NCBI GenBank assembly: GCA_964646375.1
Contig: CAZYEF010000001.1
Coordinates: 1 to 52,649, forward strand
Length of the DNA stretch: 52,649 nt
Direction of reading: 5' to 3'
DNA from: an uncultured Nitrospiraceae bacterium
GTDB taxonomy: Bacteria > Nitrospirota > UBA9217
Shown piece after piece: positions 47,804-52,629 of this stretch. How positions within the stretch are numbered: position 1 is the first letter of the stretch; each line of letters begins with the position of its first letter. The translations under genes were made by a program, and so were the position numbers. The notes beneath the pieces are model-generated. The model had not been told where the DNA came from. It saw only the letters and a list, made by a program, of their open reading frames with translations, and did not search any database.

Positions 47804-49618
47804 ATGTGCGGAATTAACGGAATAGTTTCTTGGCACCGCGATTCTGGTGTTGTTGTCAATGAAATGAATCGACACTTACATCACCGAGGTCCGGATGATG
47901 ATGGTGTTTTTTCTGCTGCTCCCTTGGCTCTAGGTCATGTTAGATTAAGTATTCTCGACCTGAGTAGCGCCGGTGCACAACCGATGTGCTTTGGTCGCTG
48001 GGTTTTGGTATTTAATGGAGAAATATACAATTTCCAGGCACTGCGTGATACGCTTATTAACTACGGTTACCAATTTACGTCGCGTAGCGACACTGAAGTG
48101 CTTCTGAAAGCTTGGGATTACTGGGGGGAGAAGTGCCTCTGCAGGCTAGAAGGCATGTTTGCGTTTGCCATTTACGATACTGCTGAACGGTTGTTGCATC
48201 TTTGCCGCGACAACTATGGAGTTAAGCCTCTATTCTATAGCCTAACTAACAATGAATTCATTTTTTCTTCAGAATTATCTACCTTGATTCATGCTCAGGC
48301 AACAATGCCTGAGATTGACAGGGATGCAATTGCTTCATATCTGGCTTTGCATTATGTTCCTGCGCCTCAAACTGGGCTGAATAACCTCTATAAGCTACCA
48401 GTTGCACACAGAATGACGGTGAGTTTTGCGGGAAACAAAATTCAGGCATCGGAGCCATATAAATGGGATGATCCTTATAAACCTCAGGACGACCCTGTCG
48501 GTATTTCAGTGGATGCCTTGGATGAAGCCCTGGCACGCAGTGTTAAAAAGCAGATGATCAGTGACGTTCCGGTAGGGGCTTTTTTAAGTGGCGGCGTTGA
48601 TTCAAGCCTGATATGTCATTATGCCAGCCAGGTGCATAACGAGCCCTTGCATACCTTTTCAATCGGCTTCTCCGATGCTGGATGTGAATACGATGAAACT
48701 GCTTATGCCGCAAGAGCAGCAAAGCTTCTGGGCGCGGAACATCATGCCGTATGCGTTGAACTGGGTAGTTTGTCGGATCATATCGATGATATTTTGAACC
48801 GGATGGGTGAATTGAATGCCGATAGTTCCGTTTTCCTGAATCATATTGTTTGTGCAGAAGCACGTAAGCACGTTACGGTTTGTCTGAGCGGGGCTGGTGG
48901 TGACGAATTGTTTGGAGGCTACTACCGTCATCAGGCATTGTTGGCATTGGAACTGCTTATCTATTGCCCGCGCCAATTACTTCGGTTTATATTGAACCTG
49001 TTAACAATTTTTCCTCAAAACAGGGACAATAGGTTTGGCAATTTTGTACGACGTTTGATTCGCTTTCTGGAACAGCGCGAGGGAAATGGCGGCTTGATTA
49101 GTCTTATACGTCAAGATCGAGCTTACCCTCAACAGAGCTGCTTTCTCAGTCAACCACCACCCTCTACACTTCTAAAGGCTCTTGAATATGATTTTCGGCA
49201 TTTTCTCGGAGATAATATTCTTGCCTTCAGTGATAAGATGAGCATGCTGCATGGTCTTGAAGTGCGAGTACCTTTTCTTGATTCCGGTGTCGTCAGGCTT
49301 GCCGAAAGCATGCAGAATCGTCAACGCGTCAGGATTTCCGAGAAAAAGGTGATTCTAAAACAGTTAGCTGTCCGATATTTCCCCAGGGACCTTATCTACC
49401 GAAAGAAGCAGGGTTTCGCTGCTCCTATGGAGGTCTGGCTGAGACAGCTCACAAAGGCCGAGCTGAGAAGGCGTTGCATGGAAGGTCTCGCAACCCAGAT
49501 CCTGCCTGAAAAGGTGATTGATAACCTTATGGAAAATTTTCTTACCCGTAACAGGGATCTTTCGCTTCAGCTTTATTCATTGATTGTAATGAATCAGTGG
49601 CACGCAGCTCTCCATTGA
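47804..49618 (+). CDS. Glutamine-hydrolysing asparagine-synthetase-family amidotransferase (AsnB family; likely EPS/exosortase-locus amidotransferase)
   Basis: Canonical MCGINGIV N-terminus (Cys2 nucleophile). Blocks LSILDLS, LVFNGEIYNF, SDTEVLL and the PP-loop FLSGGVDSS. GC content is visibly higher than the cassette upstream. Confidence 0.9.
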   Translation: MCGINGIVSWHRDSGVVVNEMNRHLHHRGPDDDGVFSAAPLALGHVRLSILDLSSAGAQPMCFGRWVLVFNGEIYNFQALRDTLINYGYQFTSRSDTEVLLKAWDYWGEKCLCRLEGMFAFAIYDTAERLLHLCRDNYGVKPLFYSLTNNEFIFSSELSTLIHAQATMPEIDRDAIASYLALHYVPAPQTGLNNLYKLPVAHRMTVSFAGNKIQASEPYKWDDPYKPQDDPVGISVDALDEALARSVKKQMISDVPVGAFLSGGVDSSLICHYASQVHNEPLHTFSIGFSDAGCEYDETAYAARAAKLLGAEHHAVCVELGSLSDHIDDILNRMGELNADSSVFLNHIVCAEARKHVTVCLSGAGGDELFGGYYRHQALLALELLIYCPRQLLRFILNLLTIFPQNRDNRFGNFVRRLIRFLEQREGNGGLISLIRQDRAYPQQSCFLSQPPPSTLLKALEYDFRHFLGDNILAFSDKMSMLHGLEVRVPFLDSGVVRLAESMQNRQRVRISEKKVILKQLAVRYFPRDLIYRKKQGFAAPMEVWLRQLTKAELRRRCMEGLATQILPEKVIDNLMENFLTRNRDLSLQLYSLIVMNQWHAALH

Positions 49619-49708
49619 AATTCAGCAGGATCGGACTTTTAATTTTCGTGATATTTGTCACAAACAAAATTGGGTAATTAGTCAATAGTATAAAAAAACA
49701 AAATAGTC

Positions 49709-49800
49709 ACTGTTTCCGCAAGGGTAAAACCAGAGTGATCTGGTGGCACAAAGCTATGGGTCCTGAAAAAATCAGGATTGCCGGGCTGTCGAGAAACAGT
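49709..49800 (+). promoter_or_regulatory. Candidate GEMM-I class cyclic-dinucleotide riboswitch aptamer (c-di-GMP-I / possibly cGAMP-sensing variant)
   Basis: P1 is ACTGTTTC (49709-49716) paired with GAAACAGT (49793-49800). Hairpin 1 is CCAGA-GUGA-UCUGG (49730-49743) with a GNRA tetraloop, preceded by GGGUAAAACC. The junction GGCACAAAGC (49745-49754) compares with GACGCAAAGC of V. cholerae Vc2. Hairpin 2 is GGUCCU/AGGAUU (49759-49779). The 3' block GCCGGGCUGUCGA (49780-49792) compares with GCGGGGUUACCGA in Vc2. The order and spacing of all blocks match GEMM-I as I recall it. Not verified with a covariance model. Confidence 0.7.
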
Positions 49801-49848
49801 TCCTCGCGTAATGTGTTATAATTATCGGAGGACTGTTTCTTTTTTTTT
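49793..49848 (+). terminator. Intrinsic terminator acting as riboswitch expression platform
   Basis: GAAACAGT(T)CCTC (49793-49805) pairs with GAGGACTGTTTC (49828-49839). That gives 12 bp with one bulged T and a 22-nt loop, followed by T9 (49840-49848). The 5' arm reuses the 3' strand of the aptamer P1. Confidence 0.75.
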
Positions 49849-49862
49849 GTAGGCACAGGAAC

Positions 49863-49886
49863 GGGCAAGGGTAATGGGCACAAGGG
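49863..49886 (+). other. G-quadruplex-forming motif G3N3G3N4G3N5G3 in the 5' UTR
   Basis: GGGcaaGGGtaatGGGcacaaGGG read directly. It also forms an imperfect direct repeat, GGGCAAGGGTA / GGGCACAAGGGTA. Located between the terminator and the AAGGAGG SD (49904-49910). Confidence 0.5.
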
Positions 49887-49916
49887 TAGGTATCGATATA
49901 TATAAGGAGGTTTAAT

Positions 49917-52565
49917 ATGAGTTTCACCGGAAAATATTTATCTTCTCTTCAAGGACTGTCAATTGTTTTTCTTGGCTCGTTTGTTGTCTCAACTGCCCAC
50001 GCTGATCCAACAATAACTGGGTTGAACGGGACTTTAGCGCACTCAAACAGTGTCACCATTAGTGGTGCAGGTTTTGGCATAAAATCACAGCCATCTCCGT
50101 TGGCCTTTGGTGATATGGAAAACAACAGCTTGGCTGCGAGAATAGGGATATGGTCAGGCAGTATGCCAACTGGCTATCCATCGGGATTCATGACGGTATC
50201 AACCCTGCATCAACGCAACTCTCATAGTAGGTATAATGCCACGTGCAATTTTGGGACGGGAACAACCGGAGCTGAATACTGCTCGTTTGGGCAGGGTACA
50301 TCATCTGCTTCATGGTATATGCAATATTGGTACTACGTTGATAGCAGTACGGTTTGGGGACAAGGCAATATCAAAATGATTCGGCTTTGGAATAATTCGA
50401 CCAATCAAAATATGTATGTTGTCGGACCATACAATCGCGGGATGGTGACAGTGGAAGGTGCTGATGAAGGGCATGGCTCCTATTTTTCTGGTTCTTGTCC
50501 CCCTTCCGCTGGAACAGGTTGGTATCCGGCTACATCTTCGTCCATTTGCGGTGATGCTGCCTTTGGTCACACGTGTAATTGTGCAGATTGGTTGCCGACT
50601 TCTTTTGAATGGCGCCGTTTTCATACCGATATGCCTTCTGGTTCATGGCATCTTTTCCAGTTTGAGTACAAGGAAGGTTCAGCAAATGGTCATAATGGTA
50701 CGTTAAGATGGTGGGCAGATGGTAGGCTCGTTTACGATCATTCCAATATTAATACCAATACAAATGGAGCAAGTAAATTTCTATTCCATTTAGGTTGGTA
50801 TAGTTCTCATGGGACAACCGATATTTCAGGTCCGGTTTATTTTGATGATGTTTATGCTGATACTACTTGGCAACGAGTGGAGATCGGCAACAGTGCCACA
50901 TATAATAATTGTACTTTAAAAGAGATCCAAATCCCCACATCGTGGAGCGACGGTTCTATCGCCTTTACAGTCAATCAGGGGGCATTCGCAGATGGGGCGA
51001 CAGGTTATATTTTTGTGACTGACGCAAATGGCACAAGAAATACGGGTTATACAGTGACATTCGGAAGTAGTGGAACAACAGATAAAACAGCCCCGACCGT
51101 TTCCTTGACAGCCCCGCTATCTGGCGCCACGGTAAGCTCTAACGCTACGGTAACTGCTTCAGCCTCCGATAATGTAGGCATTTCCAAAGTCGATTTCTAT
51201 GTTGACAGCGCCAGTTCAACACCAATCGCTACAATTGCGACGGTGCCTTATACATTTACATGGAACACCACAACAGCAACAAATGGAACCCATACCCTTT
51301 ATGCCAAGGCGTCCGACGCTGCAGGAAACTCCACCACATCCACAGGAGTAGCTGTTACCGTTTCCAATGCAGTGGTTGACTCTACCGCCCCCACAGTCTC
51401 GATCAGTTCACCAGCGTCAAATGCCACGCTGACCGGAAGTACAACCGTTACGGCCACAGCTTCTGACAATGTCGGCGTAACTAAAGTTGACTTTTTTGTC
51501 GACAGCACCAGCTCAACAGCGGTTTATACAGCGACCTCCTCACCCTATTCTTTTACCTGGGATCCTTCGACCGTTGCCAACGGATCTCACACCATTTACG
51601 CCAGGGCATCGGATTCGGCCGGCAATACAGGTATTTCAAACGTTGCGGTAACGGTGTCTGTAGCCACATCCTCCGGCACAATAAAGCGTAATGAGTGCGC
51701 GAGTCCGCCCACTGGTACTCTTTTCTGTGAGGACTTTGAGGGTTCGAATCCGAAAGATGATTTCGATGACTATGACGGAAATCCGGACACGGAAAATCTG
51801 ATAGTGTCCGATAGCGGACCTGCTGCTGATTCATCCAACAAGGCTATCAGACTGCGAGTGCCGTCTGGTGTGTCGGGGCTTTCTGATCTTTTGAAGGTGC
51901 TTCCTTCGACTTATGACAAACTCTATGCTCGCTGGTACATTAAGTATGAGTCTGGTTTTAACTTCAGTGCGCCTGCTCATGGTGGCGGTCTCACCGCAGG
52001 TGACAGGAGTTATATAGGTCTTTCAGGCAATCGACCAGCAGGAAATGATTATGCGAGTTTCCTCATACAACCGTCAACTGATAGTATAGTGCCGTATTCC
52101 TATTCTTACTATCGAGGCATGTATCAGCAATGCACGGATCCTAACGGTAGTTGCTGGGGTGATTCTCTCCCATGCATCTATGACAGCGGTTCGACTTTTT
52201 GCACTAAATCCCAGGATCGTCCAACGGTCACAATGCCCAAACTGGTTGCGGGGCAATGGTACTGTTACGAGCAGATGATCGATATGGGAACAGCCAGCAC
52301 TACTGGAACCGGAGCAACCGGCAGGATAACTCAATGGTTGGATGGTAATCAGTTTGGGGACAACACAAATCTCTGGCTCAGAACAACTGCCAATCTGAAG
52401 CTTCAAAACCTGTGGCTGGCTCTCTTTCACCATGATGGTACGCACTCCGATGTCGGAGAATTGATTGACAATGTTGTCGTATCGACCCAGCGTATCGGGT
52501 GCGGTGGATCATCTGGGACGGTTACTCCGGTATCGAATCTCAAGACTATAAAAGTGACACCATAG
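49917..52565 (+). CDS. Large secreted protein: two concanavalin-like jelly-roll (polysaccharide lyase/glucanase-like) domains plus IPT-like and tandem Ig-like domains
   Basis: Strong AAGGAGG SD. Signal peptide ...FVVSTAHA|DP. N- and C-terminal regions share paralogous blocks: WYMQYWYYVD / LYARWYIKYE, GTLRWWADGRLVYD / GRITQWLDGNQFGD, and FLFHLGWYSSHGT...VYFDDVYAD / NLWLALFHHDGTH...LIDNVVVST. Two Ig-like repeats lie in the middle. There is no C-terminal PEP-CTERM motif. Confidence 0.8.
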   Translation: MSFTGKYLSSLQGLSIVFLGSFVVSTAHADPTITGLNGTLAHSNSVTISGAGFGIKSQPSPLAFGDMENNSLAARIGIWSGSMPTGYPSGFMTVSTLHQRNSHSRYNATCNFGTGTTGAEYCSFGQGTSSASWYMQYWYYVDSSTVWGQGNIKMIRLWNNSTNQNMYVVGPYNRGMVTVEGADEGHGSYFSGSCPPSAGTGWYPATSSSICGDAAFGHTCNCADWLPTSFEWRRFHTDMPSGSWHLFQFEYKEGSANGHNGTLRWWADGRLVYDHSNINTNTNGASKFLFHLGWYSSHGTTDISGPVYFDDVYADTTWQRVEIGNSATYNNCTLKEIQIPTSWSDGSIAFTVNQGAFADGATGYIFVTDANGTRNTGYTVTFGSSGTTDKTAPTVSLTAPLSGATVSSNATVTASASDNVGISKVDFYVDSASSTPIATIATVPYTFTWNTTTATNGTHTLYAKASDAAGNSTTSTGVAVTVSNAVVDSTAPTVSISSPASNATLTGSTTVTATASDNVGVTKVDFFVDSTSSTAVYTATSSPYSFTWDPSTVANGSHTIYARASDSAGNTGISNVAVTVSVATSSGTIKRNECASPPTGTLFCEDFEGSNPKDDFDDYDGNPDTENLIVSDSGPAADSSNKAIRLRVPSGVSGLSDLLKVLPSTYDKLYARWYIKYESGFNFSAPAHGGGLTAGDRSYIGLSGNRPAGNDYASFLIQPSTDSIVPYSYSYYRGMYQQCTDPNGSCWGDSLPCIYDSGSTFCTKSQDRPTVTMPKLVAGQWYCYEQMIDMGTASTTGTGATGRITQWLDGNQFGDNTNLWLRTTANLKLQNLWLALFHHDGTHSDVGELIDNVVVSTQRIGCGGSSGTVTPVSNLKTIKVTP
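51081..51665 (+). repeat. Tandem duplication encoding two ~97-aa Ig-like domains
   Basis: Unit 1 (51081-51371): DKTAPTVSLTAP...ASDNVGISKVDFYVDS...PYTFTWNTTTATNGTHTLYAKASDAAGNS. Unit 2 (51372-51665): VDSTAPTVSISSP...ASDNVGVTKVDFFVDS...PYSFTWDPSTVANGSHTIYARASDSAGNT. Confidence 0.85.
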
Positions 52566-52586: not shown

Positions 52587-52629
52587 AATACAACAACGCC
52601 TCGTTCATTGAACGGGGCGTTGTTGTATT
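52587..52629 (+). terminator. Candidate terminator hairpin after the secreted-protein gene
   Basis: AATACAACAACGCC (52587-52600) pairs with GGCGTTGTTGTATT (52616-52629), with inner CGTTCA/TGAACG pairing. The following T-tract is weak (TCATCTG...), so this may be a stabilising or bidirectional hairpin. Confidence 0.55.

What the first reader, a model, noticed from the sequence alone, without database searches (positions are those of the whole stretch)
49709..49848. Candidate cyclic-dinucleotide (GEMM-I) ON-riboswitch with a three-way strand-exchange terminator
The 300-nt gap between the AsnB-family gene and the large secreted-protein gene contains, in order, every block I associate with GEMM-I.
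- An 8-bp P1.
- GGGUAAAACC followed by a GNRA-capped hairpin (CCAGA-GUGA-UCUGG).
- The ACAAAGC junction.
- A second hairpin.
- GCCGGGCUGUCGA.

The 8-mer ACTGTTTC occurs twice, at 49709-49716 (P1 5' strand) and at 49832-49839 (terminator 3' arm). Both copies compete for the single GAAACAGT at 49793-49800. A ligand-stabilised P1 would therefore block the 12-bp/T9 terminator and switch the downstream gene on.

The same element would also act as a conditional terminator for read-through from the ~30-kb EPS operon.

In Geobacter-type genomes a GEMM-I subclass senses 3'3'-cGAMP instead of c-di-GMP. The residue aligned with Vc2 G20 falls in GGGUAAAACC, which has one extra nucleotide relative to GGGCAAACC. 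I cannot call ligand specificity by eye.
Basis: partly seen in the sequence, partly recalled or inferred. Interest (0 to 1): 0.8.

Follow-up and report, generated by a model that had tools for sequence, protein, structure and literature searches.

The report
c-di-GMP-I riboswitch, transcriptional ON type
This is an ordinary member of the well-known c-di-GMP class I (GEMM-I) riboswitch family that most likely switches on a secreted polysaccharide-lyase-like gene beside an exopolysaccharide locus when c-di-GMP is high; only a few details of its ligand pocket are unusual.

Summary
Rfam's c-di-GMP-I model (RF01051) matches 49713-49793 (+) over its full length at 58.4 bits (gathering score 35, E 6e-9). 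The octamer ACTGTTTC occurs at 49709-16 and 49832-39, its complement GAAACAGT at 49793-800, and nine T follow at 49840-48.

Without ligand the RNA folds into a terminator hairpin (49791-49841) plus U-run. That hairpin reuses the 3' strand of P1, so ligand-stabilised P1 should prevent termination. The same design is described for GEMM RNAs in 2007 and for the Geobacter pilM riboswitch.

Four orthologous leaders from other metagenomes and MAGs keep the same aptamer, P1 and terminator, with compensatory changes.

The residue aligned with Vc2 G20 is G (49723), not A, so c-di-GMP is predicted rather than 3'3'-cGAMP. More distant orthologues carry A20 (cGAMP-type) aptamers instead.

One point stays open. 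The column aligned with Vc2 C92 is U here and G, A, G, G in the orthologues, while the next base, C49790, never varies. The RNA also scores 64.6 bits against the orphan-looking variant model c-di-GMP-I-UAU, 1.3 bits below its threshold.

A conserved CRP-type palindrome and -10 box upstream indicate the unit has its own promoter.

Verdict: new member of a known kind, low to moderate interest.

The parts
49647..49662 (.). CRP/FNR-type palindrome cGTGA-TATTTG-TCACA, a candidate activator site of the unit's own promoter
   Evidence: It holds the only exact GTGA-N6-TCAC in the window (49648-49661). The same motif lies 50-57 nt upstream of the aptamer in L001, L033, L035 (twice) and L036, and in the corresponding leader position of L032, whose aptamer is lost. 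Protein binding is inferred, not shown.
49686..49691 (+). TAGTAT, a -10-like hexamer; predicted transcription start near 49698
   Evidence: The stretch ATAGTA(T/A) is conserved, and the palindrome centre lies exactly 31.5 nt before it in the window, L001, L032 and L033 (read). The consensus sigma-70 scanner found nothing on the + strand, which would fit an activator-dependent promoter. Inference only.
49709..49718 (+). P1 5' strand: ACUGUUUC plus CG
   Evidence: It pairs with 49793-49800 and 49790-91, leaving A49792 bulged. RNAalifold on five orthologues predicts this helix independently.
49723..49723 (+). G aligned with Vc2 G20, the residue that selects the first ligand base
   Evidence: This is model position 11 in an ungapped, high-posterior alignment. 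The roles of G20 and A20 are taken from PMC6140456.
49724..49749 (+). First aptamer hairpin (P1a/P2) with GUGA tetraloop at 49735-38
   Evidence: Alignment. Three pairs show compensatory changes among the orthologues. A GYRA loop without a receptor fits the rule described for GEMM in PMC1950547.
49750..49752 (+). AAA linker; A49750 aligns with Vc2 A47, the intercalating adenine
   Evidence: Model positions 38-40. PMC1950547 states that the linker is virtually always AAA.
49752..49787 (+). Second aptamer hairpin (P1b/P3), short form without a tetraloop receptor
   Evidence: Alignment (model positions 51-54 and 67-69 are deleted).
49788..49790 (+). 3' junction G-U-C: U49789 sits in the Vc2 C92 column, and C49790 is the invariant next base
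   Evidence: This column is U, G, A, G, G across the window, L001, L033, L034 and L037, while the following C is invariant.
49790..49800 (+). P1 3' strand (CG-A-GAAACAGU), shared with the terminator 5' arm
49791..49841 (+). Intrinsic terminator hairpin, -22.9 kcal/mol
   Evidence: It is the minimum-free-energy fold of the full leader. The hairpin is conserved, with compensatory changes in its upper stem, across five leaders.
49840..49848 (+). U9 tract of the terminator
   Evidence: A T-rich run follows the hairpin in all five leaders: uninterrupted T8-T9 in the window, L033 and L037; T6-A-T3 in L001; T7-A-T2 in L034.
49904..49910 (+). Shine-Dalgarno AAGGAGG, 6 nt before the ATG and 55 nt after the U-run; not part of any switching helix
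49917..52565 (+). Regulated gene: an 882-aa secreted protein
   Evidence: Its N-terminus has the basic-then-hydrophobic pattern of a signal peptide ending in AHA (judged by eye from the translation; no signal-peptide predictor was run). The N-terminal domain matches PF14099 polysaccharide lyase at 37.7 bits. Two Big_7 Ig domains follow. The Cys-rich C-terminal domain is strongly conserved and has only a weak PL14 hit.

Best explanation
The 300-nt leader of the 882-aa secreted lyase-like gene carries a c-di-GMP class I (GEMM-I) riboswitch that works as a transcriptional ON switch.

Proposed sequence of events:
- Transcription probably starts near 49698 from a promoter with a CRP-type activator site (inferred).
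- The aptamer (49709-49800) is transcribed first, and its P1 helix forms.
- If c-di-GMP is bound, it is read by G49723, by A49750, and by a cytosine at the 3' junction, most likely C49790. P1 is then locked.
- The 3' arm of the terminator (49821-49841) cannot then displace the 5' strand of P1 from GAAACAGU.
- RNA polymerase reads through the U-run, and the gene is transcribed and then translated from an unobstructed Shine-Dalgarno site.
- Without ligand, the terminator state is about 15 kcal/mol more stable. It invades P1 and transcription stops at 49840-48.

The decision is therefore kinetic, with roughly 30-40 nt of transcription as the ligand-binding window.

Shown computationally: family membership, the two mutually exclusive folds, and their conservation. 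Inferred: ligand identity, the direction of regulation in vivo, and the promoter.
For: Family membership:
- RF01051 matches at 58.4 bits against a gathering score of 35, over the full model.
- RNAalifold on five orthologous leaders recovers P1, P1a and P1b, with compensatory pairs.
- The AAA linker and the GYRA loop without a receptor match the published family rules.

Switching:
- The ligand-free minimum-free-energy fold is the terminator in 4 of 4 leaders tested.
- Aptamer-length transcripts form P1 in 3 of 4.
- Growing window transcripts ending at 49800, 49810, 49830 and 49835 keep P1 (the 49820 intermediate adopts another fold), and the terminator replaces P1 once 49839 is reached.
- The energies are -31.7 kcal/mol for aptamer plus P1 and -46.4 kcal/mol for the two hairpins plus terminator.
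- The terminator hairpin is conserved, with different upper-stem sequences, in five leaders.

Ligand:
- G occupies the G20 column and A the A47 column.
- A20 defines the cGAMP subclass.
- The genomic context is an XrtA/PEP-CTERM exopolysaccharide locus.

Precedent:
- Terminators that overlap the aptamer's 3' side were predicted to raise expression with ligand in 78 of 322 GEMM RNAs (PMC1950547).
- The pilM riboswitch is an experimentally studied ON switch of this design (PMC9262584).
Against: - No binding or transcription experiment exists for this RNA.
- In the ungapped alignment the C92 column is U, not C. In Vc2 the C92U mutation weakens c-di-GMP binding.
- The RNA scores higher against the variant model c-di-GMP-I-UAU (64.6 bits, threshold 65.9) than against RF01051. 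The UAU pocket corresponds to the Vc2 G20U/C92U double mutant, which barely responds to c-di-GMP.
- P1 and the lower terminator stem are invariant among the orthologues, so they provide no covariation.
- The thermodynamic preference for the terminator is large, so the ON outcome depends on kinetics that were not measured.
- No consensus sigma-70 promoter was detected.
Confidence: 0.72

Rival explanations
1. The same fold and ON mechanism apply, but the physiological ligand is 3'3'-cGAMP or both dinucleotides, as in the GEMM-Ib riboswitches of Geobacter.
For: - The host is an uncultured member of the Desulfuromonadales: the best named relatives of a window enzyme are Desulfuromonadales, Geobacteraceae and Pelobacteraceae at 76-79% identity.
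- More distant orthologues of the regulated gene (L035, L036) carry A20-type aptamers of the form AAUACUAAACC...UUGCCGAA.
- If U49789 really sits at position 92, it could pair with the adenine of cGAMP.
Against: - The G20 column is G in the window and in all four close orthologues. The literature ties cGAMP selectivity to A at this position, and wild-type Vc2, which has G20, discriminates against cGAMP.
- The column-92 base varies (U, G, A, G, G) among orthologues, so it is unlikely to be a base-specific ligand contact.
Confidence: 0.08
2. It belongs functionally with the variant scaffold represented by Rfam c-di-GMP-I-UAU and senses some other, still unidentified ligand, or binds c-di-GMP only weakly.
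For: - The match to RF03168 is ungapped at 64.6 bits, higher than the 58.4 bits for RF01051 and only 1.3 bits below that family's threshold. L033 behaves the same way at 64.2 bits.
- It shares the short receptor-less P1b hairpin and the UGUC 3' junction with that model.
Against: - The defining U at the G20 column is G here.
- The score is below the curated threshold.
- The U at column 92 is not conserved in the orthologues.
- The gene context, an exopolysaccharide locus and a secreted matrix-type protein, is typical of c-di-GMP control.
Confidence: 0.1
3. The element acts mainly as a conditional terminator at the end of the roughly 30-kb EPS operon, gating read-through from asnB, rather than as the leader of an independent transcript.
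For: - No hairpin or terminator lies between the asnB stop (49618) and the aptamer.
- Twenty-three co-directional genes run from 19388 to 49618.
Against: - A conserved palindrome plus -10-like module with fixed spacing precedes the aptamer in orthologous loci.
- The gene upstream of the unit differs between loci: asnB, a methyltransferase, CapK-like, a glycosyltransferase, or an opposite-strand PEP-CTERM gene. The unit therefore behaves as a self-contained module.
- The two roles are not mutually exclusive.
Confidence: 0.25
4. It is a decaying, non-functional riboswitch remnant followed by a constitutive terminator.
For: Two related loci have clearly lost the aptamer. L032 has no Rfam hit even at E<10. 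The Desulfopila locus L002 had no hit at the gathering score. Both retain recognisable fragments.
Against: - The window's aptamer matches the whole model with all helices intact.
- It is conserved in leaders whose proteins are only 50-54% identical over their full length (L037: 69% over 65% of the query), with compensatory changes.
- A constitutive terminator of -23 kcal/mol in front of a conserved gene would silence it.
Confidence: 0.03

Closest known systems
c-di-GMP-I riboswitch (GEMM-I, Rfam RF01051), reference example Vibrio cholerae Vc2
   Same: It shares the three-helix junction fold, the G at position 20, the intercalating A at position 47, the AAA linker, the GNRA-type loop on the first hairpin and the 5'-UTR location. 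It scores above the gathering threshold.
   Different: - Vc2 has a GAAA loop with a receptor; this RNA is the receptor-less GYRA type.
- The 5' junction is one nucleotide shorter, or equivalently the 3' junction is one longer, so U rather than C falls in the C92 column.
[quoted passage not shown]
pilM (Gm0970) and Gs1761 cGAMP riboswitches of Geobacter (GEMM-Ib)
   Same: Both are transcriptional ON switches in which the terminator takes over the 3' strand of the aptamer, so that aptamer and terminator are mutually exclusive. Both come from Desulfuromonadales hosts.
   Different: Those RNAs have A at position 20 and bind cGAMP; this one has G. In pilM the terminator sequesters the ligand-pairing C75, whereas here the stem starts one base after C49790.
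c-di-GMP-I-UAU variant (Rfam RF03168)
   Same: The two align over 81 positions without gaps. They share the short P1b hairpin and the UGUC 3' junction.
   Different: The window has G instead of the defining U at the position-20 column and scores 64.6 bits against a threshold of 65.9. That the name lists positions 20, 47 and 92 is my recollection of Weinberg et al. 2017 (paper not held), and it agrees with the model consensus.
Terminator-overlapping GEMM RNAs of delta-proteobacteria (Weinberg et al. 2007)
   Same: The paper describes exactly this architecture and predicts the same logic: more ligand gives more expression. It also notes that GEMM is common in Geobacter relatives.
   Different: Nothing substantive differs. 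This is a further instance from an uncultured lineage, in front of a gene family not discussed there.

Membership tests
c-di-GMP-I / GEMM-I (RF01051) | Covariance-model score at or above the curated gathering score, over the full model | tested here: met
   58.4 bits against 35, model positions 1-87 of 87, E 6.1e-9.
c-di-GMP-I / GEMM-I (RF01051) | Two hairpins joined by an AAA linker and enclosed by a P1 helix | tested here: met
   Hairpins at 49724-49749 and 49752-49787, AAA at 49750-52, P1 formed by 49709-18 with 49790-800. RNAalifold on five orthologues gives the same structure, with 3 compensatory pairs.
c-di-GMP-I / GEMM-I (RF01051) | GNRA tetraloop on the first hairpin; a receptor in the second hairpin only when the loop is GAAA | tested here: met
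   The loop is GUGA (GYRA) and the receptor positions are deleted in the alignment. The rule is from PMC1950547.
c-di-GMP-I / GEMM-I (RF01051) | G at Vc2 position 20 and A at position 47 | tested here: met
   G49723 and A49750 in ungapped, high-posterior columns.
c-di-GMP-I / GEMM-I (RF01051) | C at Vc2 position 92, the Watson-Crick partner of the second guanine | tested here: inconclusive
   The aligned column is U49789, and it is G, A, G, G in the orthologues. The next base, C49790, is invariant. Either the junction register is shifted by one nucleotide and C49790 is the partner, or the pocket is non-canonical.
c-di-GMP-I / GEMM-I (RF01051) | Selective binding of c-di-GMP | not testable with these tools
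   Needs in-line probing, ITC or gel shift.
GEMM-Ib (3'3'-cGAMP riboswitch) | A at Vc2 position 20 | tested here: not met
   It is G in the window and in L001, L033, L034 and L037. The A20 form does occur in the more distant orthologous leaders L035 and L036.
c-di-GMP-I-UAU variant (RF03168) | Score at or above the gathering score | tested here: not met
   64.6 bits against 65.9.
c-di-GMP-I-UAU variant (RF03168) | U at the position-20 column and U at the position-92 column | tested here: not met
   The position-20 column is G. The position-92 column is U in the window but not in its orthologues.
Transcriptional ON riboswitch (P1 acting as anti-terminator) | An intrinsic terminator whose 5' arm is the 3' strand of the ligand-stabilised helix, followed by a U-run and located upstream of the start codon | tested here: met
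   Hairpin at 49791-49841 plus U9. The folds are mutually exclusive. The arrangement is conserved in five leaders.
Transcriptional ON riboswitch (P1 acting as anti-terminator) | Ligand-dependent read-through | not testable with these tools
   Needs single-round transcription or a reporter assay.

The most novel reading that the evidence does not exclude
The window and its four orthologues could form a distinct GEMM-I sub-lineage. Its scaffold is that of the orphan-looking UAU variant, and the canonical C92 column has lost constraint (U, G, A, G, G). In that case the second base of the ligand would be read differently: by the neighbouring invariant C through a one-nucleotide register shift, or not by Watson-Crick pairing at all. 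That could give altered affinity or altered dinucleotide selectivity. Together with the A20 aptamers in front of more distant orthologues, this gene family would then be a natural series in which one promoter-riboswitch-gene module has been re-tuned between second messengers.
Probability: 0.12. Interest if true: 0.55.

Novelty: new member of a known kind. Interest (0 to 1): 0.27.

Why it matters
- It places a secreted, polysaccharide-lyase-like protein at the edge of an XrtA/PEP-CTERM exopolysaccharide locus under predicted c-di-GMP control in an uncultured Desulfuromonadales bacterium. This is a concrete, testable link between the messenger and matrix remodelling.
- Orthologous genes sit behind G20-type aptamers, A20-type aptamers or decayed aptamers. 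This is a small natural experiment on how riboswitch specificity is swapped or lost while the promoter module and the gene stay.
- The ambiguity at the C92 column is a caution for calling the ligand of GEMM-I hits from three alignment columns alone.

None of this changes what is known about the class.

Tried and rejected
- **Scanners.** The simple promoter and terminator scan found no + strand promoter and no terminator. The terminator was missed because its apical region exceeds the scanner's loop limit; folding shows it clearly.
- **Source genome.** The genome-contig collection returned no locus identical to the window's gene; the best match was 53% identical. The window could be traced only to metagenome contigs (JGI 3300022663, SRR6476075). 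Taxonomy was inferred from the named best hits of a GDP-fucose-synthase-like enzyme.
- **Papers not held.** The key primary papers could not be read: Kellenberger 2015, Nelson 2015, Weinberg 2017 PNAS and Ren 2015. Statements about A20 selectivity rest on secondary sources. The meaning of 'UAU' rests on my memory plus the model consensus.
- **Protein structure.** The AlphaFold2 model of the regulated protein from a 12-sequence alignment was poor: mean pLDDT 58, with only the Ig domains confident. No fold search was run, and the lyase assignment rests on weak profile hits.
- **Missing DNA.** DNA for two further orthologues (P0009, P0013) was unavailable.
- **Palindrome elsewhere.** A search for further CRP-type palindromes in the window gave nothing above chance apart from the leader site.
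- **Position 92.** I considered calling U49789 a true position-92 U (a 'GAU' pocket). I set this aside as the primary reading because the column varies among orthologues, but it is not excluded. The Vc2 P1 register (C13-G94, G14/C93) actually fits the ungapped alignment.

Full report
**Observation.**
- ACTGTTTC lies at 49709-49716 and again at 49832-49839.
- Its complement GAAACAGT occurs once between them, at 49793-49800.
- A run of nine T lies at 49840-49848.
- Also present are GGGTAAAACC, the CCAGA-GUGA-UCUGG hairpin, ACAAAGC, a second hairpin and GCCGGGCTGTCGA.

The element lies between an AsnB-family gene (47804-49618) and an 882-codon gene (49917-52565).

**Identity.** A scan of the whole window against Rfam 15 at gathering thresholds gives a single hit: RF01051, the c-di-GMP-I riboswitch aptamer. 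It covers 49713-49793 on the + strand at 58.4 bits against a gathering score of 35, E 6.1e-9, over model positions 1-87 of 87.

A49729 simply pairs with U49744 at the base of the first hairpin.

The only indels are in the second hairpin, where the tetraloop-receptor positions are missing. That matches the published rule that GEMM RNAs with a GYRA tetraloop (here GUGA) lack the receptor. The AAA linker is also as described (PMC1950547).

**Comparative support.** The regulated protein has full-length relatives at 47-55% identity, plus relatives that share only its C-terminal two thirds. I fetched their loci.

Four leaders carry a G20-type GEMM-I aptamer in the same place:

| Locus | Source | RF01051 score or basis |
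|---|---|---|
| L001 | Desulfuromonadales MAG | 49.4 bits |
| L033 | metagenome | 60.5 bits |
| L034 | metagenome | 54.6 bits |

RNAalifold on the five aptamers independently returns P1, both hairpins and the CG/CG extension of P1. Three pairs in the first hairpin change on both sides.

P1 itself (CUGUUUC with GAAACAG) is invariant, so it contributes no covariation.

**Expression platform and mechanism.**
- Without ligand, the minimum-free-energy fold of 49700-49850 is a long hairpin at 49791-49841 followed by the U-run (z = -4.2).
- The hairpin alone is worth -22.9 kcal/mol.
- Its 5' arm is the 3' strand of P1.
- The state with both aptamer hairpins plus the terminator is -46.4 kcal/mol. The state with P1 closed is -31.7 kcal/mol. 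The two are mutually exclusive, and the terminator wins at equilibrium.
- Simulated growing transcripts ending at 49800, 49810, 49830 and 49835 keep P1 (the 49820 intermediate adopts another fold), and the terminator replaces P1 once 49839 has been made.

Ligand binding must therefore act kinetically, within roughly 30-40 nt of transcription, by making P1 resistant to strand invasion.

The same two folds are found in L001, L033 and L034 and in L037. The terminator's upper stem differs in sequence in every leader yet still pairs.

This is the arrangement proposed for many delta-proteobacterial GEMM RNAs in 2007. It has been dissected experimentally for the Geobacter metallireducens pilM riboswitch, an ON switch whose aptamer and terminator are mutually exclusive (PMC9262584).

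The Shine-Dalgarno sequence (49904-10) lies 55 nt beyond the U-run and takes part in no switching helix. Control is therefore at the level of transcription.

**Ligand.** In Vc2, G20 reads one guanine through its Hoogsteen face, C92 forms a Watson-Crick pair with the other guanine, and A47 intercalates between them. The cGAMP subclass replaces G20 by A (PMC6140456 and PMC5888326).

Here the G20 column is G49723 and the A47 column is A49750. All four close orthologues also have G at the G20 column. c-di-GMP is therefore the expected ligand.

The C92 column is the unresolved point.
- In the ungapped alignment it is U49789. In the orthologues it is G, A, G and G.
- The next base, C49790, is invariant.
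- A base that varies freely among orthologues is unlikely to be a specific ligand contact.
- My preferred reading is that the 3' junction is one nucleotide longer than in Vc2 and that C49790 is the pairing cytosine. The 5' junction then has the canonical length, with G49718 unpaired.
- The alternative keeps the Vc2 register, in which P1 ends with C13-G94 and G14/C93. That puts U, G or A at position 92. In Vc2 the C92U change weakens c-di-GMP binding without abolishing it.
- A published case shows that the pairing cytosine cannot always be read from sequence: for Cd1, C87 versus C88 had to be settled by mutation.

**Relation to the UAU variant.** With permissive thresholds, the best clan member for the window is RF03168 (c-di-GMP-I-UAU). 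It scores 64.6 bits in an alignment without a single gap, but this is below that family's gathering score of 65.9. L033 gives 64.2 bits.

The model consensus shows U at the position-20 column and UGUC at the 3' junction. The window shares the scaffold and the UGUC, but has G at the position-20 column. It therefore fails both the score test and the defining-base test for that variant, while passing RF01051.

A metagenome scan for the conserved 5' half shows that the UGUCGA junction combined with G20 is common. In those loci it occurs in an OFF-type arrangement, in front of sigma-54-type response-regulator genes.

**Context.** The genes from 19388 to 49618 form a co-directional XrtA/PEP-CTERM exopolysaccharide locus. 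It includes:
- PrsT (TIGR02917, 602 bits);
- the system ATPase and the system deacetylase, both above their cut-offs;
- an exosortase of the EpsH family, and EpsI;
- Wza-, Wzz- and Wzy-type proteins;
- many glycosyltransferases;
- two AsnB-like amidotransferases.

The regulated protein has these parts:
- an N-terminus that looks like a signal peptide (judged by eye from the translation);
- a jelly-roll domain with a modest polysaccharide-lyase match (PF14099, 37.7 bits; weak similarity to glucuronan lyase 2ZZJ);
- two Big_7 Ig-like domains;
- a strongly conserved, cysteine-rich C-terminal domain with only a weak PL14 hit.

Switching such a protein on at high c-di-GMP fits matrix production or remodelling. 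That is inference.

The best named relatives of a window enzyme are Desulfuromonadales, Geobacteraceae and Pelobacteraceae at 76-79% identity. 'Geobacter-type' is therefore broadly right.

**Own promoter.**
- Upstream of the aptamer lies cGTGA-TATTTG-TCACA (49647-62). It contains the only exact GTGA-N6-TCAC in the window.
- The same palindrome lies 50-57 nt before the aptamer in L001, L033, L035 (before two aptamers) and L036.
- It also sits at the corresponding leader position in L032, where the riboswitch is lost.
- A conserved TAGTAT-like hexamer starts exactly 31.5 nt after the palindrome centre in the window, L001, L032 and L033 (read).
- This looks like a class-II-type promoter dependent on a CRP/FNR-family activator, with a start near 49698.
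- The upstream neighbour of the unit differs between loci, so the unit is self-contained.
- Read-through from asnB remains possible, because no terminator separates the two. It is probably a minor input.

**Evolutionary notes.**
- The more distant orthologues L035 and L036 (48% and 47% identity) have A20-type aptamers of the Geobacter cGAMP kind instead, plus further copies downstream.
- L032 (55% identity, with asnB upstream as in the window) and the Desulfopila locus L002 retain only fragments of the aptamer.
- One promoter-leader-gene module therefore exists with a c-di-GMP-type sensor, with a cGAMP-type sensor, or with none.

**Verdict.** It is a new instance of a thoroughly characterised riboswitch class, with a published architecture. 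Interest is low to moderate (0.27). What interest there is comes from the ambiguous C92 column, the near-threshold match to the UAU variant model, the swap of sensor type among orthologues, and the conserved activator site. The most novel reading still open is a sub-lineage with altered recognition of the second ligand base. I give it about 12%.

**Dead ends.** These are listed under Tried and rejected. Several primary papers were not available. The protein structure model was too poor to use.

Noticed in passing
window 49647-49662 and 49686-49691; L001 3744-3757; L032 2279-2292; L033 2230-2243; L035 2158-2171 and 5444-5457; L036 5391-5404: A CRP/FNR-type palindrome (TGTGA-N6-TCACA) sits at a fixed 31.5-nt distance from a TAGTAT-like -10 box. 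It precedes GEMM-I and GEMM-Ib aptamers in this gene family, and it is kept in L032 where the riboswitch is lost. This suggests two-input control by an activator and a riboswitch.
   Followed up: partly
L035 2221-2297, 5279-5355, 5514-5590; L036 2353-2429, 5453-5529: More distant orthologues of the regulated gene carry A20 (cGAMP-type, GEMM-Ib-like) aptamers instead of the G20 type. Further copies lie in front of a neighbouring fn3/Big_7 gene. This is a swap of sensor type within one gene family.
   Followed up: partly
L032 2330-2360; L002 720-860: Two related loci keep only fragments of the aptamer and terminator. Examples are TTTCCTAAGAGGTGATAGTCC in L032, and GGGTCGGCGATGAACAG...GGACTGTTTCTGTATC in Desulfopila. 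These look like riboswitch decay.
   Followed up: partly
window 49714-49794: The aptamer aligns without gaps to Rfam RF03168 (c-di-GMP-I-UAU) at 64.6 bits, higher than its RF01051 score and 1.3 bits below the RF03168 threshold. It has G at the defining position-20 column.
   Followed up: yes
L020 1149-1227 (-): A weak GEMM-I hit (39.4 bits) has A at the position-20 column and UU at model columns 83-84. This is an A/A/U-like pocket that, from my memory of Vc2 double mutants, might favour c-di-AMP. It lies in tandem upstream of a G20 copy (L020 869-947).
   Followed up: no
L017, L020, L024, L028, L031 (aptamer coordinates): A group of GEMM-I aptamers has the 3' junction UGUCGAA and what looks like an OFF-type platform. 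They lie upstream of sigma-54-dependent NtrC-family response-regulator genes.
   Followed up: partly
window 49863-49886: GGGcaaGGGtaatGGGcacaaGGG is a canonical four-tract G-quadruplex motif in the 5' UTR, between the terminator and the ribosome-binding site. It is not conserved in the four orthologous leaders, so it is probably chance.
   Followed up: partly
window 19388-49618: This is a complete XrtA/PEP-CTERM exosortase exopolysaccharide locus. It includes PrsT, the system ATPase, a deacetylase, EpsH/EpsI, Wza-, Wzz- and Wzy-type proteins, many glycosyltransferases and two AsnB-like amidotransferases.
   Followed up: yes
window 51684-52505 (protein residues about 590-863): The C-terminal domain of the regulated protein is its most conserved part, with many invariant residues including several Cys. 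It matches no family confidently (weak PL14 hit only), and the AlphaFold2 model of it was of low confidence.
   Followed up: partly
window 52590-52626: A GC-rich hairpin (ACAACAACGCC...GGCGTTGTTGT) directly follows the stop codon of the regulated gene, facing a convergent hexapeptide-transferase gene that is seen on the longer contig (L008/L009).
   Followed up: no
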